The notes beneath the pieces were generated by a model. That model ran no database searches and was not told the origin of the DNA. It saw only the letters and a list, made by a program, of their open reading frames with translations. Made by a program: the position numbers and the translations under genes. Below, piece by piece: positions 1-16,934 of a stretch of 20,331 bases of DNA. Every line of letters begins with the position of its first letter. Position 1 is the first letter of the stretch. Source of the stretch: an uncultured virus (IMG/VR IMGVR_UViG_3300049825_000444). Taxonomy: Duplodnaviria > Heunggongvirae > Uroviricota > Caudoviricetes. The stretch lies in the IMG/VR virus record IMGVR_UViG_3300049825_000444; one strand, 5' to 3'.

Positions 1-43
1 AAATTAAAAAAGATCTAGGTTTATGAATTGGAGATAATTTAAT

Positions 44-229
44 ATGAAAGTAAAAATAAAAGACGGGGAAGTGGTTACTGTTTTATATATGGGTCCTGAA
101 CAAGTAGAAGTTCCAGGTGCGTTAGGTTCTACAAAATTAATCACTAAAACTGTTATGTATGCATACACAAAAAATGATACTAAACCAAAAAGATATTTAC
201 TAGAAGAGATAGAAGGAATTGAGAGGTAG
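44..229 (+). CDS. hypothetical protein (61 aa)
   Basis: ORF with GGAG RBS upstream; tightly packed with the next gene. Confidence 0.75.
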   Translation: MKVKIKDGEVVTVLYMGPEQVEVPGALGSTKLITKTVMYAYTKNDTKPKRYLLEEIEGIER

Positions 230-232
230 TAT

Positions 233-499
233 ATGTTGGGATCCGCATTAATGTTTATTTTAATATTTTTATTATCAATGTTACTTTTCCAAATTTTTAG
301 TAAGCCAAATTTTAAACCAGGAGACATTTTGATTTACAATTTTTCTATAAAAGAATTTCAAACATCATACCCAGATTTTAAAGTAATTTCTGTAGGTAAG
401 AATAATTATTTATTAGAAAGATTGGGTAGTTACAATAACGAAAACTTTGAACAAAGTATTGGTATTACTGATGATCTTTGTACTTTATGGAAAAGGTAA
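233..499 (+). CDS. hypothetical protein with N-terminal hydrophobic anchor
   Basis: GAGG RBS; hydrophobic N-terminus followed by FKPGDIL. Confidence 0.75.
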   Translation: MLGSALMFILIFLLSMLLFQIFSKPNFKPGDILIYNFSIKEFQTSYPDFKVISVGKNNYLLERLGSYNNENFEQSIGITDDLCTLWKR

Positions 500-726
500 T
501 TAGTTATTTAAAAAAACAAACAACTTTATTATACTTAGTATATTTTTTTCATCAAGGTGATAGACATATAGATGCCAAAGTTGGAACTATAGGTAGAGAA
601 ATTAAGTTAAAATTTAAAGATTGGGATGAAGCTTTTAAGACAACAGTATTAGTTATAAATAGATTAAAAGATTACGAAAAAAGACAAATTAAAAAAATTG
701 AAAAAGAATGTAAAGGAATAAAATGA
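487..726 (+). CDS. hypothetical protein
   Basis: ORF 478..726, ATG at 487 preferred; ATGA overlap with the next gene. Confidence 0.7.
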   Translation: MEKVISYLKKQTTLLYLVYFFHQGDRHIDAKVGTIGREIKLKFKDWDEAFKTTVLVINRLKDYEKRQIKKIEKECKGIK

Positions 727-935
727 CTACAGTAAATGAAGAAGAAATCAAAGAAACCTTGGCTATTATTAAAGCTTTAGATGACTATGCAACAACTAGT
801 ATGCCAGAAGAACTACTGGCTAATAGAACAAATACAAAGCCAGCGTTTATGCTTAGAGCTTTAATTAAAGTAATGGTGTCTAGAAATCTTTTATCAGAAA
901 AAGATGTTAATAGTGTATTAGGACAAAATGGATAA
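723..935 (+). CDS. hypothetical protein
   Basis: AAGGA RBS; translationally coupled. Confidence 0.75.
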   Translation: MTTVNEEEIKETLAIIKALDDYATTSMPEELLANRTNTKPAFMLRALIKVMVSRNLLSEKDVNSVLGQNG

Positions 936-1308
936 AGAAAAAGTTGAAGCATTATGCTCTAAAGTTGCTAGAGAAATTTTTTTATACTTAAGAAAGTTTA
1001 GAGTGCCAGTAAGGGACTGTAAAGAAAAATATGGAACTGTAAGAGTTTACACAGGATTGGGCTGGACATCAATACATTCTATATTTTATCCAGGATATGT
1101 GTATAGTCAGTTTCCACAATGGCTATGGACTTTTGATGTTTACTATGGTGACAAACTATTATATTATTCAGGATTATCATGGTTATCTTATAAAGTACAT
1201 GCATGGGCTTATAGAAAAGCTTATAAAAATGCTATTGACAAGTATCCTGAAATAAGAGATAATATTTTAAATTCAGCTGATTATAAAGAATTATTAAAGG
1301 AGTTATGA
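928..1308 (+). CDS. hypothetical phage protein
   Basis: AGGA RBS; 126 aa; KEKYG-x-x-R-x-Y motif seen in phage hypotheticals. Confidence 0.8.
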   Translation: MDKEKVEALCSKVAREIFLYLRKFRVPVRDCKEKYGTVRVYTGLGWTSIHSIFYPGYVYSQFPQWLWTFDVYYGDKLLYYSGLSWLSYKVHAWAYRKAYKNAIDKYPEIRDNILNSADYKELLKEL

Positions 1309-1449
1309 TGATTAACATTCCAACTGCTAAAGAAACTTGTGAAAATTTTAAAAAATTTAACAATTTCTGCTTGTTGTGGAGAAGAAAATGTTAAAACTTA
1401 ATATTAATATTCATAATATTATTCAGTCCCCCGACCGGAGGTCGATTAA

Positions 1450-1725
1450 ATGACTAACACTAAAATAAATAAAACTTGGTCCGATATCAGAAAAAAATTT
1501 GATTTTCTTGCTAAAGAAGAGTTAAAGTCTAACTCTAAACTTAAACTTTTATTAAAAGATTGTAAATCTCATTTTTCCCAAAAAAATCCTTGGGCGTTAG
1601 ATCTTGAAATTGTAAAGTCTTATAGTTGCATATCAAATCCTTATATATTTAATTCTGTTTTAGAACTTAAAGGATATAAAATCTTTTACAATAAAAAAAC
1701 TCGTAGTGTGGTTTTTAAGAAATGA
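1450..1725 (+). CDS. hypothetical protein
   Basis: GGAGG RBS at 1437-1441; 91 aa. Confidence 0.7.
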   Translation: MTNTKINKTWSDIRKKFDFLAKEELKSNSKLKLLLKDCKSHFSQKNPWALDLEIVKSYSCISNPYIFNSVLELKGYKIFYNKKTRSVVFKK

Positions 1726-1883
1726 AAATATATTATTGCATATACTCAAGTACTTTATTTCTAGTAGAAAATGTTAACAATTGAGCTTATCAATATAGAC
1801 TCTGTGACGATACTATTAGTTTTTATATTAAAGGTGAGTGGTTTAAAGATAAACAAAATTATATTTACATTGGGAATTTATGA
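1722..1883 (+). pseudogene. small ORF interrupted by one in-frame TGA (1782-1784)
   Basis: Translates MKIYYCIYSSTLFLVENVNN*AYQYRLCDDTISFYIKGEWFKDKQNYIYIGNL*; ATGA overlaps with both neighbours. Confidence 0.5.
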
Positions 1884-2161
1884 AACATGTAATCTGCAAC
1901 TCCTGTGGCTGGGTTCATTTTGAAGTATCAGTTGAGTATGTCTTAGACTGGCAGGATGCTTGGATTGATCATTGGTTAAAGCTAAATGAGCGAGATAGAG
2001 ACAACTATGGGACAAAGGATAGACCACCTTCTTATAAACAAGAATACTTATGTTGTAATCGTTGTGCTGGCTCATATACAAACTTTAGAGACGCCACAGC
2101 AGAGGAAGTTCCTTATGGGAGTACTATAGGTGGTATTATGACCAGAGAGGCTAAGTTTTGA
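1880..2161 (+). CDS. putative zinc-binding protein
   Basis: Two CxxC motifs (CNSC, CNRC). Confidence 0.75.
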   Translation: MKHVICNSCGWVHFEVSVEYVLDWQDAWIDHWLKLNERDRDNYGTKDRPPSYKQEYLCCNRCAGSYTNFRDATAEEVPYGSTIGGIMTREAKF

Positions 2162-2222
2162 AAAAGAAACCTTGCGGAAACTGCCCTTGTAACAAATGTA
2201 AGAATTGTCCTGTCATTCAAAA

Positions 2223-2642
2223 ATGAAATATAAAAAATTTTCTCAAGAGCTATTTGACCAATACGACACTAAGGCTAGAGAAGTCGTAAAGACATACTTT
2301 AGTAAAACCGATTGGAAGGTAGTGGATAATCCTGATAAATATGGACCAGACCTTATAGCAACAAAAGACACATACTTCATAGAAGTTGAAATAAAGAATG
2401 CTTGGCAAAATACTACTTTCCCATTTACTTCTATCCAGCTTCCACAAAGAAAACAGAAATTCACTAAGCTTCAATATGAAACAACATTCTTAGTCTTAAG
2501 TAAAGACCTAACTCAGTTTATAGGAGTTTGGGGTAAAGAACTAACAGAAGATAGGTTAGTGGAAGTTAAGAACAAATTCATACCTAATGGTGAATACTTC
2601 TTTCAAGTACCACTAGCTAATACTAAACTTATTAAAATTTAG
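2223..2642 (+). CDS. PD-(D/E)XK superfamily nuclease-like protein
   Basis: GPDL...FIEVEIK catalytic-type motif; ATG at 2223 preferred. Confidence 0.65.
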   Translation: MKYKKFSQELFDQYDTKAREVVKTYFSKTDWKVVDNPDKYGPDLIATKDTYFIEVEIKNAWQNTTFPFTSIQLPQRKQKFTKLQYETTFLVLSKDLTQFIGVWGKELTEDRLVEVKNKFIPNGEYFFQVPLANTKLIKI

Positions 2643-2713
2643 GTCCGACGGTTGGGATAGACCAACATCTTCCTGGTAACAAACCAGGGCTTTAGGTTTA
2701 AGCTACGTAGACC
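2641..2713 (-). tRNA. atypical tRNA or tRNA-like element; anticodon ambiguous (UGU/Thr if the loop is 7 nt)
   Basis: Minus-strand 73-mer folds as a cloverleaf: acceptor GGTCTACG/CGT(C)GGACC, D arm GCTT/AAGC, anticodon arm CCTGG-TTTGTTA-CCAGG, T arm GTTGG-TCTATC-CCAAC; lacks the canonical TTCGA and D-loop GG. Confidence 0.55.
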
Positions 2714-2942
2714 CTTTAATTAAATTCAAAACTTCATCAGCAACAAAGGTATCCCCATCCTCTAAGTAAACTGAGATCCCCCGATACTTTTCTAAAGCCT
2801 TTACTACTAACTCTAAATTCTTAGCTCCAGCTAGAAACCCATAGTACAATCCTGGGTTCATTACACCCCGAGGACATTCCTCTTTTTGCTTATCAATAGT
2901 ATTAGCAAAACTTATAGCAGCTTCTTTAGTTTTATTATCCAT
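2703..2942 (-). CDS. hypothetical protein
   Basis: 79 aa ORF downstream of the minus-strand promoter. Confidence 0.65.
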   Translation of the reverse strand: MDNKTKEAAISFANTIDKQKEECPRGVMNPGLYYGFLAGAKNLELVVKALEKYRGISVYLEDGDTFVADEVLNLIKGST

Positions 2943-3035
2943 ATTTTAAACTTTCTTAAAGTCGATTAAAGTATATAAATACCTAAAAATTTTATTCCAA
3001 CTACTGAGGGTAGCCACTACCACATACCCCAAACA

Positions 3036-3242
3036 TTAATCATTCAAAATAATACCCAATTCATTACATACACTCGAATATGTTTGATTTGAGACTTTAA
3101 ACAATACTTCATCACTATCAGTGAAAGCAGCGTCTTCAGGATAATACTTTAGTAAGTTATTAATCCTGCGAGCAAGTCTAGCATTAGTAACTACTAGCCT
3201 ATAATCCTCTAACTCGTATTTGTCAGTTTTCTTATGTAGCAT
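3036..3242 (-). CDS. hypothetical protein
   Basis: GGAGG RBS (3247-3251, minus) just before ATG at 3242; directly downstream of the promoter. Confidence 0.75.
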   Translation of the reverse strand: MLHKKTDKYELEDYRLVVTNARLARRINNLLKYYPEDAAFTDSDEVLFKVSNQTYSSVCNELGIILND

Positions 3243-3259
3243 TATTCCTCCAGGATTAT

Positions 3260-3288
3260 ATAATACCACAACCCCCGAGTTATGTCAA
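3260..3288 (-). promoter_or_regulatory. sigma70-type promoter
   Basis: Minus strand TTGACA-N17-TATTAT. Confidence 0.75.
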
Positions 3289-3403
3289 TAGTCGATTAGC
3301 TTTTAAAGTAGTCATTTTTTTGTTCTGACATATATGACCCCTTCTCATCATCTCAAACCCCCTTACCCCGTATACCCTACTTCAAAAACCATGCCAACAT
3401 ATC

Positions 3404-3476
3404 CTGGTCCTATATTTGCATAGACTTTACTCTGGCATGATACTTGCTTATACCTTTACATGGTATCTAGTTTGCA
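3404..3476 (+). promoter_or_regulatory. three tandem sigma54 (-24/-12)-like sites with 28-bp period
   Basis: TGGTCCTATATTTGCA (3405), TGGCATGATACTTGCT (3433), TGGTATCTAGTTTGCA (3461); all GG-N10-GC with TTGC. Confidence 0.6.
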
Positions 3477-3506
3477 TTATACAATTCCTATTCCATCCTA
3501 CATGAG

Positions 3507-3552
3507 ACCCTAGTATCAGAGTACCTTATTACAGAGGCTCTAGTACTAGGGT
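3507..3552. repeat. imperfect inverted repeat or hairpin
   Basis: ACCCTAGTA-tc-AGAG ... CTCT-ag-TACTAGGGT. Confidence 0.6.
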
Positions 3553-3865
3553 ATGCTTAGGTATAGGGTGGTAGGTTTTGATTCAAGGAATGTACTCAAA
3601 GTTGGGATAGGAATGAATGTATTCCATTACACACCTACTTCATACTACTCATATAAGCTTAATCTACTAACCTCATCCTTATATTGTCATAATTTCAGGA
3701 TTATAGACTTGTATACCTATTAATCATTGTACATTACTTATTCACTAGATATAAGCTATCGATGTTAATAGACTATTGATAGTTAATATCATACTAAGGC
3801 TATAATCTTTATACGTTTTATAATAAGAATACCTTTCAGGATATAGATATATTCGTTTTAAGCTA

Positions 3866-3881
3866 TGGTATGCAACTTGCT
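3866..3881 (+). promoter_or_regulatory. sigma54-like promoter
   Basis: TGGTATGCAACTTGCT (GG-N10-GC) about 30 bp upstream of AGGAG RBS and ATG 3912. Confidence 0.65.
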
Positions 3882-3911
3882 ATAGTATATAATTCAACGA
3901 GGAGTTTTAAA

Positions 3912-4052
3912 ATGAAAGATATATTACTAGGCTTAAGAGATGCTTTACTTATTACAATTGTAATTCAGATTATGGCATTTACATTTATTAAAACATTTAA
4001 AGAACTAGGTACTGTCCGTTCAAATGTTCAAAAGATTGTTTCAGGTAGATAA
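3912..4052 (+). CDS. small membrane protein
   Basis: AGGAG RBS, ATG 3912; one hydrophobic segment. Confidence 0.6.
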   Translation: MKDILLGLRDALLITIVIQIMAFTFIKTFKELGTVRSNVQKIVSGR

Positions 4053-4145
4053 GTATATGTTATACTTAGTATTGATACTTCTTATGCTTTATTTCTTAAG
4101 TCCTTGGTCTTTACTACTATTAATTTTACTATAGGAGTTATACAT

Positions 4146-4400
4146 ATGAAACAACTTAATACAACATTAATGAATCAGCCTCTAGCTTATCAATGTTCTT
4201 TCAGGATAAATGAGCTATGTTCTTATTATGGAAAGCTTAATGCTTATAAGACAATGCTTTCACCCCGTCGCATTATGGAACTGTCCGACTTATCTGAACT
4301 AGAAAGACATGTCTCAAATTTATACATTACAGTGGGTCATGATTGCTATTTTGATGTATTTAATATAATTTTTAATAAAGAATTAAAGAAAGTAGGCTAG
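4146..4400 (+). CDS. hypothetical protein
   Basis: AGGAG RBS before ATG 4146. Confidence 0.7.
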   Translation: MKQLNTTLMNQPLAYQCSFRINELCSYYGKLNAYKTMLSPRRIMELSDLSELERHVSNLYITVGHDCYFDVFNIIFNKELKKVG

Positions 4401-4404
4401 TTAT

Positions 4405-4695
4405 ATGAAACAAACAATAGATATTAATATTTTTAAAGATACTTTCAGGAATTATGGTAGACAAGATCAGTTTAGTTCCCGAGGTCTCGAATTGTTATTC
4501 GACTATTTAGAAGAACTAGAAAATGATACTGGTGACGAGATGGAACTAGATGTTATAGGCTTATGTTGCGACTGGACTGAATCTTCATTAACTGAAGTTT
4601 TAAAAGAATATGACTTAGACTCACTAGAAGATTTACAAGATAGTACTCAAGTAATAGTTGTAGACGATGAAACAGTGATTTATAATGCATTTTAA
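4405..4695 (+). CDS. acidic phage early-type protein
   Basis: 96 aa, strongly D/E-rich C-terminal half; LFDYLEE...ELDVIGLCCD motif. Confidence 0.8.
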   Translation: MKQTIDINIFKDTFRNYGRQDQFSSRGLELLFDYLEELENDTGDEMELDVIGLCCDWTESSLTEVLKEYDLDSLEDLQDSTQVIVVDDETVIYNAF

Positions 4696-4729
4696 TACTT
4701 TACATGATTTTATTTTATATAGAAATAAG

Positions 4730-4861
4730 ATGCTTATTAGAGCTAAGGCTAGAACTTTGAAATTTAAAGATAACAAAAAGAATTACTATTGGTACAGACT
4801 AGATTATATAAATTCATTATATCCTGAATATTCAAAGTTAGGTGTTATTACTTTAAAATGA
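4730..4861 (+). CDS. possible small protein (43 aa)
   Basis: MLIRAKARTLKFKD...GVITLK*; no clear RBS. Confidence 0.35.
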   Translation: MLIRAKARTLKFKDNKKNYYWYRLDYINSLYPEYSKLGVITLK

Positions 4862-5305
4862 TACACCTTCCCTTGAATGCTTAGGGAAGTTGCTTTCATG
4901 TTATATACTCGACGCTTCGCTTTCACTTGCGTTCGCTTCGCTATATAACATACTTAAATAAATGAATTAAGTTTGTGTATCAAAAAGGCGCAACTATCCC
5001 ATTCTTGAGGGTTAGAGCTTAGACTGTTTTCAATCTTAAGATTTGGGTATTCCCGAGTCTAGTTTTTTCTTATCTACTAGAGTCTATTTCTAAGCTTTGA
5101 TTATATGATACTCATAAACATACAATCTTATCCTGTTAGGTCCTATCATCTCTGTACGCCTCTAGGTCTCTTGAACCCTGAACCAGAGGTCACTTGGTTG
5201 TGTCTTGCCCGATTTGCCCTTGAGTTTTCATCCCCAAAGCTTCAATGAATTCTTATCGGATTCTTTTACGTTAGACGATAGGTTCGCCGTTCTATTATTA
5301 ACTTG
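4855..5305 (-). ncRNA. candidate large structured non-coding RNA (~450 nt)
   Basis: No ORF of 60 aa or more; perfect promoter at 5312-5340 pointing into it; nested perfect helices 4859-4866/4975-4982, 4867-4873/4883-4889, 4898-4907/4942-4951, 4952-4957/4967-4972, 5016-5022/5090-5096, 5058-5063/5076-5081; T4 run after the last stem. Confidence 0.6.
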
Positions 5306-5311
5306 TTTATT

Positions 5312-5340
5312 ATTATATGTCAAAATAGTGTACTTGTCAA
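5312..5340 (-). promoter_or_regulatory. consensus sigma70 promoter
   Basis: Minus strand TTGACA-N17-TATAAT, perfect consensus. Confidence 0.8.
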
Positions 5341-5465
5341 TAATATTTTCAAAAGCTACTTATCCCGTTGAATTCATTGATTAATACTTATTTATCCTGA
5401 AAGTAATGTATATAAAATGTACATATCATTATGATACAGTGTTAATGATTTCAAGTAATTAGAGT

Positions 5466-5481
5466 TGGTATGTAGTTTGCT
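5466..5481 (+). promoter_or_regulatory. sigma54-like promoter
   Basis: TGGTATGTAGTTTGCT (GG-N10-GC); shares TTGCTATAGTAT with the 3866 site; upstream of the long + strand gene run. Confidence 0.65.
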
Positions 5482-5501
5482 ATAGTATGTAGTCAAGTGA
5501 G

Positions 5502-6179
5502 GTGATGATTATGAAGATGACTAATAGAGAATTCAAAAAAAACTTAGATTCAATTACAGAAAATGATATAATTCAAATGAGAAACGTAAAGGTCAATCAT
5601 CCTATTAAATTGGAAGACTTAAATATGTCTTTAAAACTAGGAAATGAATATGAGTTAGTTATCAGGGAATTTCTTGAGGCTTTGGGTTTTCAGGATGAAA
5701 GAATAGAGTCTTGTGAATGTAGACGCCGAGACGGGTTTATCCCATATTCTCATAACAAAGGTGGACTAAGTGGATATTCTTATCAATCTCAATCCATACA
5801 TGAATCAACTGGTTTTAATAAAGTTGACGAGGTGATTGAAAAAGGTAGAAAATATAATGAAGAATACTTTAGGTCTGATAACAATATTGATAAAGATGCT
5901 GAACTAACTGAATATCAATTAGAGCTTTTATATGAGTATGAACAAAATTCAGACGATACAATTCAATTTCAAGCTAGAGTTTTGATGACAAGTGAAACAA
6001 CCGCTAATGTTGATTTTTATATTTCAGCAAGTGATTCGCCTTATCACCGATCTAGTGACGAAAAACTAGAACTTAGTATTAAATTCAAGACATCGAAAGG
6101 TATGAAACGAAAATTAAATGCTATTTTAAAAAAAGATTTTGTTCAAAATTTTAAAGCTAATGTTCAAGAGGGGTTTTAA
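5502..6179 (+). CDS. hypothetical protein (225 aa)
   Basis: Long ORF; GAGGTG RBS suggests the start may be ATG 5511. Confidence 0.8.
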   Translation: MMIMKMTNREFKKNLDSITENDIIQMRNVKVNHPIKLEDLNMSLKLGNEYELVIREFLEALGFQDERIESCECRRRDGFIPYSHNKGGLSGYSYQSQSIHESTGFNKVDEVIEKGRKYNEEYFRSDNNIDKDAELTEYQLELLYEYEQNSDDTIQFQARVLMTSETTANVDFYISASDSPYHRSSDEKLELSIKFKTSKGMKRKLNAILKKDFVQNFKANVQEGF

Positions 6180-6181
6180 TT

Positions 6182-6418
6182 ATGAAACACATTAATTTAT
6201 CAAGACCATTAAAAAATGGATTAGCTAAACATATGATAACACAAGAATCAAATAATTACGGTGATCAAATATTGTCTTTTAAATCTTTTTATAAAGACGG
6301 TGTAATATCTGGTTATAAAATTGTTAGCATCACTAGTCGATCAGAAGGTGAATGGATGGATTTTAAACAAATGAAGGCTTATTATAATGAATTAAAAAAA
6401 AGAGGAGTTTTAAGTTGA
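6182..6418 (+). CDS. hypothetical protein
   Basis: GAGG RBS; coupled ORF. Confidence 0.7.
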   Translation: MKHINLSRPLKNGLAKHMITQESNNYGDQILSFKSFYKDGVISGYKIVSITSRSEGEWMDFKQMKAYYNELKKRGVLS

Positions 6419-6639
6419 AAAAGTTTGAAACAAAAACCGGACTATTAACTGATTATGCTTTAAGTTGTGGATACATACAAGTTTTTGAATACAACAACAA
6501 AAGAGTATGCTTATCAAAAGAGCACAACTGTTATCATGTAAAGAATACTAGCAACGAATTAAGGTACTGGAAGACTTTTGATACTCTTAAAGAAGCTAGA
6601 CAGGATTTTAATAAAATTAAAAAGGAACGTCCGCAATGA
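6415..6639 (+). CDS. hypothetical phage protein
   Basis: AGGAG RBS, TTG start; LTDYALSCGYIQ motif. Confidence 0.75.
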   Translation: MKKFETKTGLLTDYALSCGYIQVFEYNNKRVCLSKEHNCYHVKNTSNELRYWKTFDTLKEARQDFNKIKKERPQ

Positions 6640-6782
6640 AATTTAAGCTATACATAAAATTTAAAGATCGAAATTTTCAAACTATCAGTCAAGTTATTGA
6701 TTTTAATAACAAAAACGGTAGGGCTTTGTTTTTAGAGCGAATGAAAAAACAAAAAACAGTGTTGGAATTTAAATTAATATAA
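6636..6782 (+). CDS. small hypothetical protein (48 aa)
   Basis: ATGA overlap, AAGGA RBS, fills the gap exactly. Confidence 0.6.
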   Translation: MKFKLYIKFKDRNFQTISQVIDFNNKNGRALFLERMKKQKTVLEFKLI

Positions 6783-6792
6783 GGAATAACAT

Positions 6793-7131
6793 ATGATTAA
6801 AGTAAAAAATTATAAAAAAATGGGTAGGGGTCTGTATTCAACTAAATCAATCAAAAAAGGCACAACATTCATGACTTGTGAAACTATACTACTAAATAAA
6901 CAGGATTCTAAGCTTGTGGACAAGACACTGTTAGCTAGTTATGTATATGACGCTGGATCTGGACAATCCTGCTTAGCTCTAGGTCTAGGCTCATTGTATA
7001 ATCATTCAAGCTCTGAAAATGTAGAATTTAATATAGTAAAATTTTCCGGTCGAGTTATGATTAAATATAAGGCTTTAAGAGATATTAAAGCTGGTACGCA
7101 GTTATTTTTAAATTATGGTTATGAACCCTAA
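6793..7131 (+). CDS. SET-domain protein (putative lysine methyltransferase)
   Basis: GRGLYS, LYNHS and ALRDIKAG-x-QLFLNYG SET motifs; minimal 112 aa. Confidence 0.9.
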   Translation: MIKVKNYKKMGRGLYSTKSIKKGTTFMTCETILLNKQDSKLVDKTLLASYVYDAGSGQSCLALGLGSLYNHSSSENVEFNIVKFSGRVMIKYKALRDIKAGTQLFLNYGYEP

Positions 7132-7168
7132 CGCATGTATTTTCCTTAATCTATTGAAAGGATTAAAA

Positions 7169-7306
7169 ATGAACCAAGGTATTTGCTTAGAATGTAAAGA
7201 GTGGACAGATCCTGAAGAATCATGTTGTGGTGCTGGAGTTGTGGTAGAAGGATCAATTATTTTTGAAAGTGAGGAAGAAAATGAAATTAATAATGAAAAG
7301 AAATAA
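7169..7306 (+). CDS. small Cys-rich, acidic protein
   Basis: AAGGA RBS before ATG 7169; CLEC...CCG. Confidence 0.6.
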   Translation: MNQGICLECKEWTDPEESCCGAGVVVEGSIIFESEEENEINNEKK

Positions 7307-7445
7307 CTCAAAGTTTGAACAAGTTTTTCAAAGCAAGGTGCTAATGCTTCAAAAAATTAAGCAATTAGAGTCACAAGGCTTTACTATTGTTGAAATTATA
7401 GAAGATGTTCCCCATGTATATTTTCCTAACCCTTTGGTCCACTAG
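7293..7445 (+). CDS. small hypothetical protein
   Basis: Coupled ORF filling the gap; start uncertain. Confidence 0.5.
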   Translation: MKRNNSKFEQVFQSKVLMLQKIKQLESQGFTIVEIIEDVPHVYFPNPLVH

Positions 7446-7456
7446 GAGTAAATAAT

Positions 7457-8029
7457 ATGAAAATTAATACTGATATGATTTCAAAAATGAATCCATGTTC
7501 TGATAGATTTAATAATTTTAAAACTAGCTATCCAGATTTTAATGGTGAATTACATGAATTCTTAAGTTTAGAAAATATTACTTATGATGATAAAGTGTGG
7601 GTATCTGTTAGACTATTAAACAAGAATCAATTAGTTCAATGGTCTATTTTTTGTGCTGAATCTGTAAAACATATATTTGAAACTAAATATCCTGAAAATA
7701 AATGTTTATCTGAATTATTGGATTATTTAAAGTCTATAAATAATTTTGAAAATCTAAGTCAAGAACAAAAAGGCAAAATTCAAAAATTGAGATATGCTGC
7801 TGCTGTTGCTGCTTATGCTGCTTATGCTGCTGATTATGCTGCTTATGCTGCTGCTTATGCTGCTGCTTATGCTGCTGATTATGCTGCTGCTTATGCTGCT
7901 GCTTATGCTGCTGATTATGCTGCTGCTTATGCTGCTGATTATGCTGCTGATGCTGCTGTTAAAAAAGAAGAACAAAGAAATTTAAATTTATTGTATTTAG
8001 CTTCACTAATCGAAACAAACAAGGAGTAA
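7457..8029 (+). CDS. phage protein with Ala/Tyr/Asp low-complexity repeat
   Basis: AGGAG RBS; globular N-terminus (NPC...DKVW...FCAESV) followed by an AAY/ADY tract. Confidence 0.85.
   Translation: MKINTDMISKMNPCSDRFNNFKTSYPDFNGELHEFLSLENITYDDKVWVSVRLLNKNQLVQWSIFCAESVKHIFETKYPENKCLSELLDYLKSINNFENLSQEQKGKIQKLRYAAAVAAYAAYAADYAAYAAAYAAAYAADYAAAYAAAYAADYAAAYAADYAADAAVKKEEQRNLNLLYLASLIETNKE
7793..7960 (+). repeat. coding low-complexity repeat of GCT/TAT/GAT/GTT codons
   Basis: 56 codons drawn from only four T-ending codons; mostly 9-12 bp units. Confidence 0.95.
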
Positions 8030-8032
8030 TTT

Positions 8033-8506
8033 ATGAAAAAACTATTATACACATTTGCTTTCCTAGCCCTGTCATCTTGTGCCAATAACTTAGGTACCAG
8101 TAATGACATTGGTCGTAGACTTGACGAGCTAGAGCGTCAATTCCAGGTATTAAAACAAAATCTAGATTTAACACTCAACACTGTGACACAGCTTCAGTTT
8201 AGTCAAGGGAATCAGGATTCTTTGATTGCAAGTCTACAGACACAAGCAAATTCACAGCAAATTCTTTTGACACAGCTACAGACACAAGAGTCTATTGTTC
8301 AAATTAAAGATGTTTGTGGTACATATCCTGGTGTGTACAATGAAGTAATGTTAAAAACAAAATCTGGAAAATACATTGCGTATTTTGAACAGCATGGAAA
8401 TAGATTTTTAGTTCAGCTAACTCCAGGATCATACAAAACGACCGATAGCACAAATTGTTACTTCACAATTAATTCAAACGGTGAACTAGTCAATGAACAT
8501 TACTAA
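8033..8506 (+). CDS. putative lipoprotein with coiled-coil
   Basis: Signal peptide with lipobox-like LSSC; Q/L-rich heptad region; C-terminal domain with two Cys. Confidence 0.75.
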   Translation: MKKLLYTFAFLALSSCANNLGTSNDIGRRLDELERQFQVLKQNLDLTLNTVTQLQFSQGNQDSLIASLQTQANSQQILLTQLQTQESIVQIKDVCGTYPGVYNEVMLKTKSGKYIAYFEQHGNRFLVQLTPGSYKTTDSTNCYFTINSNGELVNEHY

Positions 8507-8783
8507 GCTAACAATTATCTTTTTATGCGTTACTTTCCTAACCCCTTGTCTTGTTCACTCTGAACAGGACTTGTGGGTAGATGTAACTCATACTTTAGAA
8601 TGTAAACAAATAGGTTACGAAGTGAATAATGAATGTTACTTTGGTCCTAATGATTACCAGGTGCGTTCTTTCCTTACCTATGAAAAAAAGCTTTGGGATA
8701 GTGTAAAATATACTTGGCTTTTTAATCATGGAAAAAGTAAAGATGAGTTAGATGACAACCCTTATTATAAGGATTTAAGATAA
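8493..8783 (+). CDS. putative secreted protein
   Basis: N-terminal signal-like hydrophobic segment. Confidence 0.65.
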   Translation: MNITKLTIIFLCVTFLTPCLVHSEQDLWVDVTHTLECKQIGYEVNNECYFGPNDYQVRSFLTYEKKLWDSVKYTWLFNHGKSKDELDDNPYYKDLR

Positions 8784-8890
8784 TGATTGATTTACTTATA
8801 TACTCAATTATAATCTTATTTATAACAATACCTTGTATTATATTATTAATTGCTTTAGTTATTACAAGTTTAAACGATGAGGACTTATAA
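8783..8890 (+). CDS. small membrane peptide (35 aa)
   Basis: TAATG overlaps at both ends; AAGGA RBS; hydrophobic. Confidence 0.55.
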   Translation: MIDLLIYSIIILFITIPCIILLIALVITSLNDEDL

Positions 8891-9015
8891 TGTTAAATGT
8901 ATATTACAATGACAAGTTAAACCTACTAGGCGTACTCTTTCCTAACCGCTTGCTTAAAGTTCAAGAAGATGGTAATATATTTATGGTACTAACAAAAGAA
9001 TGGAAGATTTTATGA
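8890..9015 (+). CDS. small hypothetical protein (41 aa)
   Basis: GAGGA RBS; coupled at both ends. Confidence 0.55.
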   Translation: MLNVYYNDKLNLLGVLFPNRLLKVQEDGNIFMVLTKEWKIL

Positions 9016-9230
9016 TTATTTTAGGAATTATATTATATTTAACAATTGGATATTTTATAATTGCATTCATTGAAAGATTCACTAAAGAAAAAGAAGAATT
9101 ATTTTATTTATTAGTAATTTTTTTCCCTTTTGTTTTATTTGGTTTGATATTTGTGTCTATTGGTTTTATTTTTAAAAAAATTTTAGATAGTGAACCAAGT
9201 AAATTACGTAAATGGATTAGAGGTTTTTAA
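9012..9230 (+). CDS. membrane protein with two TM segments
   Basis: Two hydrophobic segments; start at 9000 or 9012. Confidence 0.7.
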   Translation: MIILGIILYLTIGYFIIAFIERFTKEKEELFYLLVIFFPFVLFGLIFVSIGFIFKKILDSEPSKLRKWIRGF

Positions 9231-9297
9231 TATGATCACAACAAGTTATGTTTTATTTTAAAACAAGAAACTATGGAAAAAAACGGAGAATACTATT

Positions 9298-9630
9298 ATG
9301 TTTAATAAAGAATTATACATTAATAGACCCTTAAATAGAAAGTCTAAAGGATTATACTATGCTGGATCAAACAAATGGAGACTAAGAGAAGTTATTGTAA
9401 ATGCTTGGGAATTAGGTTTACTTAGATGTGGATATTGTAACCATAGATTTAATCTCATTAGTAATGACTACCCAACTTTAGATCATATTATACCTAAGTC
9501 TCAAAATGGTTCACATAATATTTTGAACTTGACACCATGTTGTAATAAATGTAATGTTAATAAAGGTTCTCAAACTTGGAAAGTTAAATACCCCACCCAA
9601 TTTTTTGGGGTAGAAGGAAAAACAAAATGA
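9298..9630 (+). CDS. HNH endonuclease
   Basis: CGYC...TLDHIIPKSQNG...NL...CNKCN..K motif. Confidence 0.9.
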   Translation: MFNKELYINRPLNRKSKGLYYAGSNKWRLREVIVNAWELGLLRCGYCNHRFNLISNDYPTLDHIIPKSQNGSHNILNLTPCCNKCNVNKGSQTWKVKYPTQFFGVEGKTK

Positions 9631-10559
9631 AAGAATTGATCGTCCTTTGTGGCCCACCAGGTAGCGGGAAAAGCACATGGGCTAAAAATTTCATTAAACA
9701 TGAACTTAATTCTTATCATTATGTGAATCAAGATAGCCATGGTAAAGACGATCATAAGAGACTATTCAATTTAGCTTTAGATTGTGGAGCTAATGTAATA
9801 GTAGATAGAATGGGATTTAATAAAGAACAAAGACAACGATACCTAGCTCCAGCAAAAGTTTTAGGATACAGAACCAGGATTGTTGTTTTACACCAACCTA
9901 AACAAGTGTGTTATGACAGGATTATTGCTAGAGAAGGACATGAAACTATTAAAGCCGGGGACACCGCTACAGCCGGAAAGGTTCTTCATTTCTTTTTTAA
10001 GAATTATGAAAGACCGACACAAGATGAAGCAGATCAAATTCAGTTTGTTTATCCTGGTGGACCGAAAACTAAAGCTGTAATTTTTGATCTTGACGGTACT
10101 TTATGCAATATTGATCATCGTCTTCATTATGTAAAAGGACCTGGAAAAAAAGATTGGAAAAATTTTTTATCTAATGTCGATAAAGATAATGTTAACGAAT
10201 GGTGTAGACAATTGATAAAATCTATGGATGCATTAAAATATAAAATTGTTTATTGTTCTGGTCGTGGTCAAGAATATAAAGATAAAACTACAAAATGGTT
10301 AGGATCAAATGAATTATATGAATATTGTAATGAAGTAGCTAAAGATAAAAACGGTGATTATTATTTAAAAGAAGAACATCTCTATATGAGAGAACGTGGT
10401 GATCATAGAACTGATTATATTATTAAAGAAATTATCTTAGATTTTGAACTATTGACAAGATTCGAAATATTGTTTACAGTAGATGATAGAAAGCAAGTAG
10501 TGGACATGTGGCGTCGTCGAGGTATTACTTGTTTGCATTGTGCCGAAGGGGATTTTTAA
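9627..10559 (+). CDS. pseT: polynucleotide 5'-kinase/3'-phosphatase (T4 PseT/Pnkp-like)
   Basis: P-loop GPPGSGKST kinase fused to HAD phosphatase (FDLDGTL, SGR, VDDR). Confidence 0.92.
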   Translation: MKELIVLCGPPGSGKSTWAKNFIKHELNSYHYVNQDSHGKDDHKRLFNLALDCGANVIVDRMGFNKEQRQRYLAPAKVLGYRTRIVVLHQPKQVCYDRIIAREGHETIKAGDTATAGKVLHFFFKNYERPTQDEADQIQFVYPGGPKTKAVIFDLDGTLCNIDHRLHYVKGPGKKDWKNFLSNVDKDNVNEWCRQLIKSMDALKYKIVYCSGRGQEYKDKTTKWLGSNELYEYCNEVAKDKNGDYYLKEEHLYMRERGDHRTDYIIKEIILDFELLTRFEILFTVDDRKQVVDMWRRRGITCLHCAEGDF

Positions 10560-10699
10560 TGGATGATAACAAAAGAGTTATGAATGCTGCTTTAGAAGAA
10601 CTTGAAGCTCAACGTAGAATCATTACTAAACTTGAAATTGAAAACGATGAGTTAAAAAAGAAGATTAAAGATTTGTTAAAAGAAAAGGAATTAAAATGA
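10559..10699 (+). CDS. small coiled-coil protein
   Basis: TAATG overlap, ATG 10559; heptad pattern. Confidence 0.6.
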   Translation: MDDNKRVMNAALEELEAQRRIITKLEIENDELKKKIKDLLKEKELK

Positions 10700-11193
10700 T
10701 TTGGATTTTATTAGTAGTATTTCAATTTAAACATTTCATTGCTGATTACCCTCTTCAAGGTAAATACATGTTAGGTAAGTTTAAAGATAAAGAATGGCAA
10801 CTTCCTTTAGCTGCTCATTGTGGAGTACATTTTTTATTTACTTTTGTTATTAGTTTTTTAACTTTATATAATAACTATAGATACATTAAAGGAGAATCAC
10901 AATTAGGATTATTAATTATTTTATCAACAGGATTAGCTTTAATAGATTTCAAAATTCATTTTATTATGGATAGAATTAAAGCAAGTCCTAAGATGCTTGG
11001 TCAATATCAAAACTTTACTAAAAAAGAATTTGAAAAAGAGATTTTACCTTTAATGCAAGGTGGAGAATGTTATGAAATGGAAGTAAAGAGTCGTTTAAAA
11101 TCTAATACTTTATTTTGGTGGTCACTTGGTTTAGATCAAATGGTACATCATTTAACAGATATTCTAATTATTTATTTACTAATGAGTTTATAA
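10696..11193 (+). CDS. DUF3307-like membrane protein
   Basis: HFIADYPLQ, H-x-x-x-H, HFIMD and DQMVH motifs with TM segments. Confidence 0.8.
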   Translation: MIWILLVVFQFKHFIADYPLQGKYMLGKFKDKEWQLPLAAHCGVHFLFTFVISFLTLYNNYRYIKGESQLGLLIILSTGLALIDFKIHFIMDRIKASPKMLGQYQNFTKKEFEKEILPLMQGGECYEMEVKSRLKSNTLFWWSLGLDQMVHHLTDILIIYLLMSL

Positions 11194-11582
11194 TGAAAAA
11201 TAATTTTAATGTATTTGGTGATGTTGTAGGAAATGAATTAACGTTAAAAGCTCTTTTAGCTAAAATGCCACAAGATGCTGAAGCCCTTTGCTTAGGTGAT
11301 CCTAATGACCGTGGACCTAGATCTAAACAGGTTATTGAATTTTTAATGCAAAATGGTAGAACAGTATTTTCTAATCATACACATATGTTTACAGAAGAGT
11401 GGAAGCAATCTGCTATGCCTGGGGCTTATCCTAGATATTATGACTCAAATATTTTCTTTGGTAATGGTGGTGAATACACAATGAAATCTTATGCTGATAG
11501 TCCAGTATGGAGAGCTAAAGAAAATTTTTTTAATTGGATTAAAAGAGTTTACAATTTTAATTTTGGAGAAAATTATGGATAG
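11193..11582 (+). pseudogene. truncated calcineurin-like metallophosphoesterase
   Basis: GDVVG (DxH His absent), LGDPNDRG and SNH motifs; only 129 aa, C-terminal His motifs missing. Confidence 0.65.
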
Positions 11583-12696
11583 TACGTTTAAAGTTCCTTT
11601 GACTAAAGTTTTAAAAGTAGAAGATCATCCAAATGCTGATAGATTATCTTTAGCTACAGTTTATGGATTTCAAATTATTATTAGCAGAAATCAATATTCT
11701 GTTGGTGAGTCAGTAATCTATATCCCAATTGATTCAATTATTGATGGTAAATTAGAACAGATTCTATTTCCACCAGATGCTAAAGTTCGACCTAGTAATG
11801 GTCGTATTCGGCAAATTAAATTACGAGGTTTAGCAAGTCAGGGATTACTAGTAAATCCTAAAGATGTTGAATCTATCGTTAACACTAAATATTTAAAACA
11901 AGAACAAGACGTTGCTGCAATTTTAGGTATTACTAAATATGAACCACCAGTAGCAGAAATTCAAGTTTTAAAGAAAGATAAAAAACAAAGAAAAAATCTA
12001 CCTAATCCAAATTTTCATAGCTATAACGGTCTTACTAACTTAAAATGGATGCCTAATCTTTTTGATAGTAAAGAAGTTGTTATCCAGGAAAAAATTCATG
12101 GAATGAATGCAAGAGCCGCATTACTACCTAGACCAGTAAGAACTTTTTGGGATAAAGTTAAAAAACTATTTGGTTATTTCAATTACTGGGAATATGTTTA
12201 TGGTTCTAATAACGTAGATATTACTAATAAGAAGGAATATGTTGGATACTATCAGAGAGATATTCATGGTGAAGTATTTAATAAATTAGATTATCAAAAT
12301 AAACTTTTGCCAAATGAAATTATCTATGGAGAAATTTATGGACCGGGTATTCAAGAAAATTATGATTATGGTTTAACAGAACCTAAATTTATTTTATTTG
12401 ATGTTAAAAAATTTAAAGATGATGGTACTCATTATTGGTTAGATCCTGAACAAGTTGAAGTTTTTACTAAAGAACGTGGTTTTGATATGGTTCCAGTATT
12501 ATATAAAGGAATTTATAATAAAGAATTAGCTAAACAATTAGCACAAGGACCAAGTGTATTACATCCTGATGAACCAGTAAGAGAGGGTTGTGTTGTTAAA
12601 TTATCAGAGAATTATTCACTGGATGGTAACAAACAAGCTTTAAAAGTTATTTCAGAAGAATATTTGGCTAATAACAAAAACAGTGATAATCACTAG
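11575..12696 (+). CDS. ATP-dependent RNA ligase (DRB0094/Rnl5-like)
   Basis: N-terminal HPNADRL OB-like domain; motifs EKIHGMN, YGEIYG, LFDV, EGCVVK, KVISEEY; GGAG RBS before ATG 11575. Confidence 0.9.
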   Translation: MDSTFKVPLTKVLKVEDHPNADRLSLATVYGFQIIISRNQYSVGESVIYIPIDSIIDGKLEQILFPPDAKVRPSNGRIRQIKLRGLASQGLLVNPKDVESIVNTKYLKQEQDVAAILGITKYEPPVAEIQVLKKDKKQRKNLPNPNFHSYNGLTNLKWMPNLFDSKEVVIQEKIHGMNARAALLPRPVRTFWDKVKKLFGYFNYWEYVYGSNNVDITNKKEYVGYYQRDIHGEVFNKLDYQNKLLPNEIIYGEIYGPGIQENYDYGLTEPKFILFDVKKFKDDGTHYWLDPEQVEVFTKERGFDMVPVLYKGIYNKELAKQLAQGPSVLHPDEPVREGCVVKLSENYSLDGNKQALKVISEEYLANNKNSDNH

Positions 12697-12704
12697 GAGT
12701 TGGT

Positions 12705-12938: not shown

Positions 12939-12945
12939 GAGATAC

Positions 12946-13158: not shown

Positions 13159-13162
13159 AATC

Positions 13163-14738: not shown

Positions 14739-14739
14739 T

Positions 14740-16927: not shown

Positions 16928-16934
16928 GAGTTTT

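What the first reader, a model, noticed from the sequence alone, without database searches (positions are those of the whole stretch)
4855..5340. Candidate novel ~450-nt structured phage ncRNA with its own perfect promoter, antisense to the early region
Seen: an ORF-free gap in an otherwise wall-to-wall coding genome; a perfect minus-strand TTGACA-N17-TATAAT (5340-5312) with no RBS/ORF downstream; many nested perfect helices. The 3' domain is a multibranch junction closed by TGATACAC/GTGTATCA (4859-4866/4975-4982) holding three hairpins, followed by TTTT. A middle domain is closed by AGCTTAG/CTAAGCT, and further stems include CCTCT/AGAGG (5159-5189). Known: phages carry large structured RNAs (GOLLD, ROOL classes), but I do not recognise this as one of them, nor as an intron, tmRNA or RNase P. 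Inference: an undescribed large ncRNA (e.g. protein sponge or anti-defence RNA) or an RNA primer for replication.
Basis: partly seen in the sequence, partly recalled or inferred. Interest (0 to 1): 0.85.

Follow-up and report, generated by a model that had tools for sequence, protein, structure and literature searches.

The report
Orphan promoter-driven non-coding phage RNA
A gene-free stretch of an uncultured freshwater phage carries a textbook-perfect promoter that fires into about 450 bases with no protein gene and ends in a very stable cloverleaf-shaped fold, so it is probably a new non-coding RNA gene, but it has almost no relatives and its role is unknown.

Summary
The promoter is credible. 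It belongs to a TATTGACA(AG) promoter class of this phage, and three other members sit just upstream of a start codon. No Rfam family, tRNA, hidden ORF, alternative-code ORF or pseudogene trace was found.

The structure is uneven. Only the 3' four-way junction (4859-4982) is far beyond chance (z -6.9). The middle domain is marginal (z -2.3) and the 5' domain is not significant (z -1.5). The junction has 39 Watson-Crick pairs and no G-U, and folds equally well on either strand or as DNA.

No covariation test was possible because near relatives are missing from all collections searched. Two weak comparative hints exist. A 96-97% identical strain carries two substitutions that turn minus-strand G-U pairs into Watson-Crick pairs. 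One related phage (RNR 73% identical) has the same layout and a probably homologous central hairpin.

Best reading: a new orphan phage ncRNA gene ending at a convergent-transcription junction (confidence 0.45). It is not a GOLLD/ROOL-type RNA and not an antisense RNA to the early genes.

The parts
5312..5340 (-). Perfect sigma-70-type promoter TTGACA-17-TATAAT of the phage's TATTGACA(AG) class; transcription start expected near 5304-5306
   Evidence: 12/12 match; all 5 TATTGACA sites in the window are promoter-like. There were no differences across 5287-5344 in the X2 strain contig.
5294..5323 (-). Second, overlapping promoter-like site TTGACA-18-AATAAT (11/12), start expected near 5287
4855..5305 (-). 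Candidate non-coding transcript (about 450 nt if it ends at the UUUU; the 3' end is not established)
   Evidence: Fold z -4.64. G+C is 0.36-0.40 against 0.25-0.30 in the flanks, and the skews are reversed. No credible ORF. No Rfam match.
4859..4982 (.). Four-way junction: an 8-bp closing helix around hairpins H1 (4952-4972), H2 (4898-4951) and H3 (4867-4889). It overlaps the TGA stop of ORF 4685-4861
   Evidence: 39 pairs, 0 G-U; z -6.92 on minus, -6.02 on plus; z -6.58 / -5.31 as DNA; the most extreme 200-nt window on the minus strand.
4898..4951 (-). Central hairpin H2. Its tip (4913-4939) carries GAA/AAG triplets and two GCGAAGC copies. This is the only part with a probable homolog, in the related phage record G003
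4867..4889 (.). Hairpin H3 (7 bp). On the plus strand it is followed by TTGCTTTC, so it is a possible terminator for the plus-strand operon ending at 4861
   Evidence: Read from the sequence.
5016..5096 (-). Middle four-way junction closed by AGCUUAGA/UCUAAGCU
   Evidence: pair probability 0.90; z -2.29, 8 of 200 shuffles as good.
5039..5070 (+). Terminator-like hairpin plus T6 on the plus strand, inside the middle domain
5142..5282 (-). 5' domain closed by the 10-bp helix CCUAUCGUCU/AGAUGAUAGG. It contains G-U pairs specific to the minus strand
   Evidence: probability 0.99; z -1.49, not significant. Two X2 variants fall on its G-U pairs.
5242..5380 (.). Exact 11-nt inverted repeat TCAATGAATTC (5242-5252 and 5370-5380) bracketing the promoter
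   Evidence: Function unknown.

Best explanation
The gap holds a separate non-coding RNA gene of the phage.

Proposed mechanism:
- Host sigma-70-type RNA polymerase starts at the perfect early-class promoter (5340-5312), near 5305, and transcribes leftward. The start is inferred, not shown.
- The transcript is purine-rich and gene-free. It has a loosely folded 5' two-thirds whose helices use minus-strand-only G-U pairs.
- It ends in a very stable four-way junction (4982-4859) at the point where it meets the oppositely transcribed operon ending at 4861.
- The junction most likely stops or stabilises the RNA's 3' end and also blocks read-through from the other side (inferred).
- The conserved tip of its central hairpin, a run of GAA/AAG triplets, is the best candidate for a binding site of a protein or nucleic acid partner (speculative).

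The RNA's trans-acting role is unknown. It defines a new family that is so far almost an orphan.
For: Promoter:
- It matches 12 of 12, one of three such sites in 20 kb.
- It shares the extended TATTGACA(AG) motif. All 5 TATTGACA sites are promoter-like (expected 1.48). The sites at 17251 and 3288, and the 12/12 site at 19622, lie 18-33 nt before a start codon, while 5340 has none.

No coding potential:
- (0 of 10 stop-to-stop fragments hit PHROGs).
- The only small ORF preceded by a Shine-Dalgarno sequence (5149-5090) loses its AUG in the natural variant at 5148.

Composition: G+C is raised, and GC and AT skews are reversed relative to the plus-strand genes.

Folding:
- z -4.64 overall.
- The minus strand is better than the plus strand in all 4 sub-stretches tested.
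- The 3' junction is the most structured 200-nt window on the minus strand.

Strain variation:
- Both substitutions listed inside the RNA (5148, 5219) convert minus-strand G-U pairs to G-C and A-U.
- There were 0 differences in 58 nt of promoter and start, against 6 in the next 93 nt upstream.

Related phage G003 (RNR 73% aa identity, 6 shared ORFs):
- A minus-strand TTGACA-18-TATCAT promoter fires into a 425-nt ORF-free stretch that ends at a convergent ORF, next to the same 96-aa gene.
- It carries a hairpin of the same architecture and tip motif, with a lower stem of entirely different sequence.
- The L003 hairpin's best hit in the whole window is our H1-H2.
Against: - No expression data; no RNA run was listed.
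- No covariation. The relatives are either 96-97% identical or barely alignable.
- The 5' domain (z -1.49) and middle domain (z -2.29) are weak.
- The 3' junction has no G-U pair and folds as well on the plus strand or as DNA. It therefore does not by itself argue for a minus-strand RNA.
- No canonical minus-strand terminator was found, while plus-strand terminator-like sites lie inside the gap.
- The two strain substitutions are weak statistics. The chance that 2 of 2 random transitions keep pairing is 0.09-0.14. Two further differences in that contig were not listed.
- Homology with L003 is modest. 10 of 4212 real background windows score as well for H1-H2 and 121 of 4212 for the whole junction. 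In G003 two unrelated sites tie with it. The 5' 300 nt shows no reciprocal hit. 7-mer collinearity is not significant, with 170 of 500 shuffles as good. Single-sequence covariance models do not detect it.
Confidence: 0.45

Rival explanations
1. The functional unit is a boundary between transcription units, not an RNA product. The hairpin cluster 4859-4982, together with the plus-strand terminator at 5039-5070, stops transcription from both directions. The strong leftward promoter exists to oppose read-through from the plus-strand operon 3870-4861 into the next plus-strand unit, by transcriptional interference or as an insulator.
For: - The junction sits exactly at the convergence point and overlaps the stop codon of ORF 4685-4861.
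- All 39 pairs are Watson-Crick with no G-U, as expected if both strands must fold.
- z is similar on both strands.
- H3 is followed by a U-rich run on the plus strand, and there is a plus-strand terminator-like site at 5039-5060.
- In L003 the last hairpin is flanked by an A-tract and a U-tract, like a two-way terminator.
Against: - The other convergent junction of the window (2642-2703) manages with about 60 nt.
- A 124-nt four-way junction with a conserved purine-triplet tip, plus 320 nt of G+C-enriched spacer, is far more than a terminator needs.
- The minus-strand-only G-U pairs and their strain variants are left unexplained.
Confidence: 0.2
2. The region is a replication origin or another DNA-level element. 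The promoter would supply an activating or priming transcript, as in ColE1 RNA II, T7 or the T4 R-loop origins (recalled from memory). The perfect hairpins with two GCGAAGC mini-hairpin motifs would act as single-stranded DNA signals.
For: - GCGAAGC occurs twice in the window, both times in the tip of H2 (expected 0.20; 1 of 100 shuffles reach 2).
- The junction folds as DNA with z -6.58.
- There are two overlapping promoters.
- The RNA is G-rich with several GGG runs.
- In a distant relative, L034, the region upstream of the 225-aa gene homolog holds four iteron-like 21-nt repeats.
Against: - There are no iterons or tandem repeats in our gap.
- No replication genes were identified in the window.
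- The exact GCGAAGC is not kept in L003, which has GUGAAGC and GCUGAACGC.
- The region downstream of the promoter is G+C-richer, not an AT-rich unwinding element.
Confidence: 0.12
3. The gap has no function of its own. It is a decayed or rearranged early region that kept an orphan promoter, and the inverted repeats are remnants such as terminators of lost genes or a small mobile insertion with 8-bp terminal inverted repeats.
For: - The element is an orphan, with no matches in the collections searched.
- The 5' domain folds no better than shuffles.
- Gene order around it differs in G003.
Against: - A perfect promoter of the phage's own class is unlikely to persist without use.
- No protein remnant was found.
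- G+C enrichment and a z of -6.9 are not expected of junk.
- The same layout recurs in a phage whose proteins are only 36-73% identical.
- The promoter is invariant in the strain variant while the adjacent spacer varies.
Confidence: 0.13
4. The transcript acts in cis on longer minus-strand transcription. It could be a leader or a put-like antitermination RNA that lets polymerase read on, antisense through genes 4861-3870, towards the minus-strand genes at 3242-2703. Alternatively it could encode a very small peptide.
For: - The RNA starts directly at a strong promoter.
- No canonical minus-strand terminator was found down to 3000.
- An earlier scan note on another phage proposed a put-like RNA for a similar layout. 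That is a lead only (e1-3484466).
Against: - The minus-strand genes at 3242-2703 have their own strong promoter at 3288.
- About 1.6 kb of head-on transcription against real genes would be needed.
- The only plausible small ORF loses its start codon in the variant strain.
Confidence: 0.05

Closest known systems
Large ornate phage-associated RNAs (GOLLD, ROOL)
   Same: Long, promoter-driven, non-coding, multi-junction RNA in a phage genome from an aquatic metagenome.
   Different: No match to any of the 4227 Rfam 15 models, even at E up to 10. It is shorter (about 450 nt), only one third is strongly structured, and it lacks the wide distribution and covariation that define those classes. That these families are in Rfam is recalled; the cryo-EM paper PMC12286853 was seen only as a search listing and abstract.
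Small stable RNAs of large lytic phages (for example the T4 species 1/2 RNAs next to its tRNA genes; recalled, not checked here)
   Same: Phage-encoded stable non-coding RNA of unknown function, with a cloverleaf-like end, in a phage that also carries tRNA-repair enzymes (PNK and RNA ligase).
   Different: The four-way junction is not tRNA-like to ARAGORN or to the Rfam tRNA model. It has its own promoter and is not part of a tRNA cluster.
Bidirectional intrinsic terminators at convergent genes
   Same: Hairpins at the exact meeting point of two opposed transcription units, made only of Watson-Crick pairs so that they fold on both strands.
   Different: It is a 124-nt four-way junction rather than one G+C-rich hairpin flanked by A- and U-tracts. 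The tip sequence is conserved. The minus strand was not called a terminator by the scan.
Origin transcripts and primer RNAs (ColE1 RNA II, T7 and T4 R-loop origins; recalled) and DNA mini-hairpin signals (G4 origin, ssiA; PMC13037366, passages read)
   Same: A strong promoter reads into a non-coding structured region, the RNA is G-rich, and there are two GCGAAGC motifs.
   Different: No AT-rich unwinding element downstream, no iterons, no adjacent replication genes, and the motif is not strictly conserved in the relative.
HK022 put-type cis-acting antitermination RNAs
   Same: A structured RNA encoded immediately downstream of a strong phage promoter.
   Different: There is no operon on the same strand directly downstream. 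No sequence or structure comparison was made. The idea comes only from an earlier scan note.

Membership tests
Any Rfam 15 family (including GOLLD, ROOL, group I/II introns, tmRNA, RNase P, 6S, Y-RNA-like) | Score at or above the family's gathering threshold with its covariance model | tested here: not met
   0 matches over the whole window at gathering thresholds. In 4600-5600 at E up to 10 there were only 6 chance-level hits of 17-22 bits against thresholds of 35-97.
tRNA / tmRNA | Cloverleaf with a 7-bp acceptor stem, D, anticodon and T arms, and conserved loop bases | tested here: not met
   ARAGORN found 0 genes in the window. There is no tRNA-model hit in 4600-5600. The junction arms are 6, 10+ and 7 bp with 8-9-nt loops and no T-loop motif.
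Canonical intrinsic terminator ending the minus-strand RNA | G+C-rich hairpin followed within 0-2 nt by a U-run | tested here: not met
   The scan found no minus-strand terminator in 3000-7000. The UUUU follows the closing helix of a multibranch loop.
Cis-antisense RNA to the early genes | Transcript overlaps a coding gene on the opposite strand | tested here: inconclusive
   If the RNA ends at 4855 it overlaps only the stop codon of ORF 4685-4861. The real 3' end is unknown.
Self-splicing intron in a split gene | Flanking ORFs join into one protein, and an intron core is present | tested here: not met
   The 225-aa protein's relatives are mostly about the same length, 181-257 aa (only proteins of 123-394 aa were searched). 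There is no intron model hit.
Structured ncRNA supported by comparative analysis | Helices maintained by compensatory changes across homologs | tested here: inconclusive
   Only one distant probable homolog exists (L003). H2 keeps its architecture with a lower stem of different sequence, but the alignment is defined by the structure and n = 2. Two strain variants keep pairing.
Mini-hairpin (GCGNAGC) origin or initiation signal | GCGAAGC-type motif in single-stranded DNA at a replication or transcription start | tested here: inconclusive
   The motif is present twice. It is not exactly kept in L003. Use as an origin cannot be tested here.
Iteron-type replication origin | Tandem direct repeats of about 17-22 bp next to an AT-rich region | tested here: not met
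   No such repeats in 4600-5600.

The most novel reading that the evidence does not exclude
This is the first member of a new family of phage regulatory RNAs. A conserved hairpin tip presents five spaced purine triplets (GAA-GAA-AAG-GAA-GAA) as a docking platform for an oligomeric RNA-binding protein of the host or phage. That would resemble the way TRAP reads spaced triplets (recalled). The abundant early RNA would then act as a protein sponge that helps host takeover.
Probability: 0.1. Interest if true: 0.7.

Novelty: new variant of a known kind. Interest (0 to 1): 0.42.

Why it matters
Few non-coding RNA genes of lytic phages are understood, and the known large ones (GOLLD, ROOL) still have no established function. 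This is a cleanly delimited candidate. It has a perfect promoter, no ORF, an exceptionally stable four-way junction and a hairpin tip shared with a related phage. It could be cloned as a 650-bp fragment and tested for transcription, termination in both directions and protein binding without culturing the phage. If it turns out to be only a transcription-unit boundary, it is an unusually elaborate one and shows how this phage lineage separates its early operons.

Tried and rejected
Homolog searches that found nothing:
- blastn and megablast against 50,697 phage records.
- blastn and nhmmer against fetched loci.
- DNA and covariance-model search of 5+5 viral records.
- Exact 20- and 29-mers in viral contigs and genome contigs. 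The 20-mer turned out to include the variable position 5219.
- L003's region against phage records.
- A mis-specified degenerate pattern wasted one scan. It could not match even L003.
- The 96-aa neighbour gene is absent from 5 further viral records.
- Earlier-findings look-ups by place and by sequence were empty.

Expression: no RNA holder was listed. Only DNA contigs were laid.

Relatives of the flanking 225-aa protein (L001, L002, L034, about 55% identical) have different upstream regions.

Hidden coding:
- Alternative genetic codes.
- Small ORFs.
- PHROGs scan of 10 stop-to-stop fragments.

Trans-target search by RNA duplex energy over 1958 windows gave no outstanding or sensible target.

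Side path on the 225-aa flanking protein:
- No Pfam, PHROG, NCBIfam or PDB sequence match.
- The AlphaFold model has pLDDT 91.
- Foldseek found nothing at E 0.001 or better.
- The best VIA-align Z was 6.7, and the T4 MotA C-terminal domain scored Z 5.1. Both are within the tool's stated noise range, so no function is inferred.

Other:
- A sliding z-score scan timed out. It was replaced by an MFE-versus-GC regression.
- MAFFT alignments of our RNA with L003 were in the wrong register because of the internal GAA periodicity, so RNAalifold counts on them were not used.
- Single-sequence covariance models R1 and R2 did not recover L003 significantly.
- A 7-mer collinearity test was not significant.
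- The motif ATCCTGAA as a phage promoter element was rejected. Many copies are in-frame Tyr-Pro-Glu codons.
Full report
**Context.** The window is a 29%-G+C fragment of an uncultured large lytic phage.
- It encodes polynucleotide kinase, RNA ligase, ribonucleotide reductase and NAD-salvage enzymes.
- A SET-domain protein and a pentapeptide-repeat protein are also encoded.
- The only run holding the stretch in full is a freshwater-sediment metagenome, which may be its source.
- No cultured phage is near. There is no nucleotide match in 50,697 phage records. The RNA ligase is at most 30% identical to any protein in them.

Between the stop of ORF 4685-4861 and the start of the 225-aa gene at 5502 there is no credible ORF on either strand.
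- Reading TGA as W or TAG as Q opens nothing long.
- Ten stop-to-stop fragments hit no PHROG family.
- Of the small ORFs inside the putative transcript, only one (5149-5090, 19 aa) has a Shine-Dalgarno-like sequence. A natural strain variant at 5148 destroys its AUG.
- The perfect TTGACA-17-TATAAT lies at 5340-5312 on the minus strand. A second site at 5323-5294 matches 11 of 12.

**The promoter is probably real.**
- Across bases 1-20000 only three sites match 12 of 12. The other two sit 30-33 nt upstream of the RNR gene (17312) and of the ORF at 19680.
- The promoters share an extended motif. All 5 occurrences of TATTGACA (expected 1.48; 3 of 100 shuffles reach 5) are followed at 17 nt by a -10-like hexamer. 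The same holds for all 4 occurrences of TTGACAAG.
- Three of the strong promoters (17251, 3288 and the 12/12 site at 19622) precede a start codon within 18-33 nt. The one at 5340 does not.
- In a 96-97% identical strain from another freshwater metagenome, the contig covering 5287-5437 has no difference in the 58 nt spanning the promoter and start. It has 6 differences in the next 93 nt upstream. This is suggestive, but the numbers are small.

**Structure.** The stretch 4855-5305 folds at -118.9 kcal/mol on the minus strand (z -4.64) and -109.2 kcal/mol on the plus strand (z -3.34). No shuffle of 100 was as good on either strand.

| Sub-stretch | z, minus strand | Shuffles as good | z, plus strand |
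|---|---|---|---|
| 3' junction 4855-4985 | -6.92 | 0 of 200 | -6.02 |
| Middle junction 4986-5100 | -2.29 | 8 of 200 | -1.59 |
| 5' domain 5141-5289 | -1.49 | 15 of 200 | -0.99 |
| Hairpin 5095-5140 | -1.78 | 11 of 200 | +0.45 |

- In a regression of MFE on G+C over 200-nt windows of the whole window, 4801-5000 on the minus strand is the strongest outlier, at -3.26 sd.
- So the 450-nt structured RNA is really one exceptional 124-nt four-way junction plus about 320 nt of modest structure.
- The junction has 39 pairs, all Watson-Crick. It folds as well as DNA, with z -6.58 and -5.31. It therefore does not say which strand or which molecule matters.
- The 5' and middle helices contain 6 G-U pairs that would be A-C mismatches on the plus strand.
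- G+C is 0.36-0.40 against 0.25-0.30 in the flanks. GC and AT skews are reversed relative to the plus-strand genes. Both fit a minus-strand sense.

**Ends.**
- No canonical terminator is called on the minus strand. The UUUU at 4858-4855 follows the closing helix of the junction.
- On the plus strand there is a terminator-like hairpin with T6 at 5039-5070.
- H3 (4867-4889) is followed on the plus strand by TTGCTTTC.
- The gap is therefore also the place where the plus-strand operon 3870-4861 should end. If both readings are right, the two transcripts would overlap by about 200 nt.

**Known families.**
- No Rfam 15 family matches at gathering thresholds.
- None matches meaningfully at E up to 10.
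- There is no tRNA or tmRNA.
- The 225-aa protein's relatives are mostly about the same length, so the gap is not an intron in a split gene.

**Relatives.** The phage is nearly an orphan.
- The 225-aa neighbour has 45 relatives among 5.8 billion proteins. Apart from its own copy, none is above 59% identical.
- The loci holding such relatives have different upstream regions.
- One of them (L034) has four iteron-like 21-nt repeats there.
- Exact-word scans of viral and genome collections found nothing.

**Strain variant.** Two 151-nt contigs of run X2 cover 5103-5253 (4 differences) and 5287-5437 (6 differences).
- No other X2 record laid on 3500-7000 aligned over its full length. The rest were 33-42-nt pieces with 3-8 differences.
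- The two differences listed inside the RNA are 5148 A>G and 5219 C>T.
- Both fall on minus-strand G-U pairs (G30-U158 and U68-G87) and turn them into G-C and A-U.
- Random transitions in that stretch keep pairing in 33 of 89 cases, so 2 of 2 has a chance of about 0.14.
- The narrower event, G-U to Watson-Crick, is rarer but was defined after the fact.
- Two further differences near the contig ends were not listed.

**A related phage with the same layout.** Record G003 (79.8 kb, terminal repeats, 33% G+C) shares 6 ORFs with the window at E of 0.001 or better. RNR is 73% identical and the 96-aa protein 57%.
- In its locus L003, a minus-strand TTGACA-18-TATCAT (11 of 12) at 2675-2646 fires into a 425-nt ORF-free, G+C-richer stretch (2216-2640).
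- That stretch ends at the stop of a convergent ORF. It lies 360 nt from the homolog of the same 96-aa gene.
- It folds with z -2.46 overall. Its thirds give z -2.06, -1.52 and -0.75 on the minus strand.

Sequence similarity to our RNA is weak.
- The local alignment score is 222 against 166 +/- 22 for shuffles, with 3 of 300 as good.
- Against real phage sequence as background, the L003 region ranks as follows:

| Query from our RNA | Background windows scoring as well |
|---|---|
| 27-nt H2 tip | 24 of 4212 |
| H1-H2 (79 nt) | 10 of 4212 |
| Whole 3' junction | 121 of 4212 |
| Whole RNA | 15 of 1054 |

- Searching the other way, L003's H1-H2 finds our H1-H2 as its best hit in the whole window, at 105 against 94 for the next hit.
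- Our H1-H2 finds the L003 site at 105, but two unrelated G003 sites tie with it at 106 and 105.
- The 5' 300 nt gives no reciprocal hit.
- 7-mer collinearity is not significant, with 170 of 500 shuffles as good.
- Single-sequence covariance models do not detect L003.

The shared core is the tip of the central hairpin.
- The pattern GAAGC-N0-1-GAA-NNN-AAGTGAAAG-N1-3-GAA was derived from both sequences.
- It occurs once in the window and once in L003. It occurs in none of the other 34 loci held, and in no other record of the viral collection.
- In both phages this tip sits on a hairpin of the same architecture: 2-3 bp, a bulged A, 2 bp, a purine internal loop, then a 3-4-bp apical stem.
- The lower stem is perfect in both but has an entirely different sequence. 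Ours is AUGUUAUAUA/UAUAUAACAU. L003 has GUUUUAGCUUGA/UCAAGC-G-UAAAAC.
- In both, a short hairpin with CAUU(U) in its loop abuts it directly on the 5' side.
- I take this as a probable (about 60%) homolog of the H1-H2 module, and as conservation of the overall layout. It is not proof of a conserved 450-nt RNA.
- Again almost all pairs are Watson-Crick: 1 G-U, at a terminal pair, in the L003 hairpins as I read the folds.

**Interpretation.**
- Most likely (0.45) this is a separate non-coding RNA gene, driven by an early-class host-type promoter and ending in or at the junction.
- The near-absence of G-U pairs in the 3' module in both phages suggests that this module is constrained on both strands. 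That fits a role at the convergent junction, as a two-way stop or 3'-end stabiliser, in addition to whatever the conserved tip does.
- Four rivals remain:
  - a pure transcription boundary or interference unit (0.20);
  - an origin, primer or DNA-hairpin element (0.12);
  - a functionless remnant (0.13);
  - a cis-acting leader or micro-peptide (0.05).
- For the origin reading, the two GCGAAGC motifs and the review's statement on mini-hairpins at phage origins (PMC13037366, passages read) count in favour. The lack of iterons and of an AT-rich unwinding region counts against.
- 'Antisense to the early region' is not supported unless the RNA reads through 4855.

**Verdict.** This is a real, well-delimited and plausibly new phage ncRNA locus. 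The evidence is a strong promoter, absence of coding, one outstanding structural module and thin comparative support. Function and even the functional strand of the best-folded part remain open. Interest is moderate.

Noticed in passing
window 2648-2708 (-): A tRNA-like element (anticodon-loop UGU, Thr-like) scores 23.9 bits against the Rfam tRNA threshold of 29, and ARAGORN misses it. It starts at the stop codon of minus-strand gene 2942-2703. Its anticodon-arm hairpin is the two-way terminator-like site between the convergent genes. By my reading the acceptor stem has 5 of 7 pairs and there is no CCA.
   Followed up: partly
window 3290-3870: A second ORF-poor, G+C-richer region with strongly negative GC skew lies between promoter 3288(-) and the plus-strand genes. 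It folds with z -2.49 (minus) and -1.85 (plus). It contains G-runs (GGG..GGGG..GGGGG..GGGG on the minus strand, about 3345-3385) that could form a G-quadruplex just upstream of the promoter. ORF 3553-3723 looks non-genic.
   Followed up: partly
window 1233, 3290, 5342, 10450, 17249 (first bases of the sites): The phage has its own strong promoter class, TATTGACA(AG)-17-TAtAAT. All 5 TATTGACA sites are promoter-like, and the sites at 17251 and 3288, like the 12/12 site at 19622, sit 18-33 nt before a start codon.
   Followed up: yes
window 5393-5403(+), 3833-3843(-), 4198-4208(-): The 11-mer TATCCTGAAAG occurs 3 times exactly and twice with one mismatch (expected 0.62; 0 of 100 shuffles reach 5). 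Two exact copies lie in the two divergent promoter regions. Several related ATCCTGAA copies are simply in-frame Tyr-Pro-Glu codons.
   Followed up: partly
window 4811-5378: AATGAATT occurs 11 times in the window (expected 4.9), and 4 of the copies lie within the 570 nt around the candidate RNA. They include an exact 11-nt inverted repeat TCAATGAATTC at 5242-5252 / 5370-5380 that brackets the promoter. This may be a regulator binding site.
   Followed up: no
L034 3600-3690 (upstream of the 225-aa gene homolog): Four tandem 21-nt units (CCAATTGGCTA[A/G]GA[T/C]AACAGCGATA) that look like iterons or operator repeats, in an ORF-free 1-kb region of a distant relative.
   Followed up: no
window 5502-6179 (+): The 225-aa protein belongs to a family of about 45 uncharacterised phage proteins with no Pfam, PHROG or NCBIfam model. 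Its AlphaFold model is confident (pLDDT 91), but no solved fold matched clearly (best Z 6.7).
   Followed up: partly
window 13731-14738 (+), repeats 14025-14348: The gene combines DUF7666 with pentapeptide repeats encoded by 21.6 copies of a 15-nt tandem repeat. This explains the strongest 'structure' signal on the plus strand in the MFE scan.
   Followed up: no
window 6793-7131 (+): A SET-domain (lysine methyltransferase-type) protein is encoded in the phage early region (Pfam E 6e-15).
   Followed up: no
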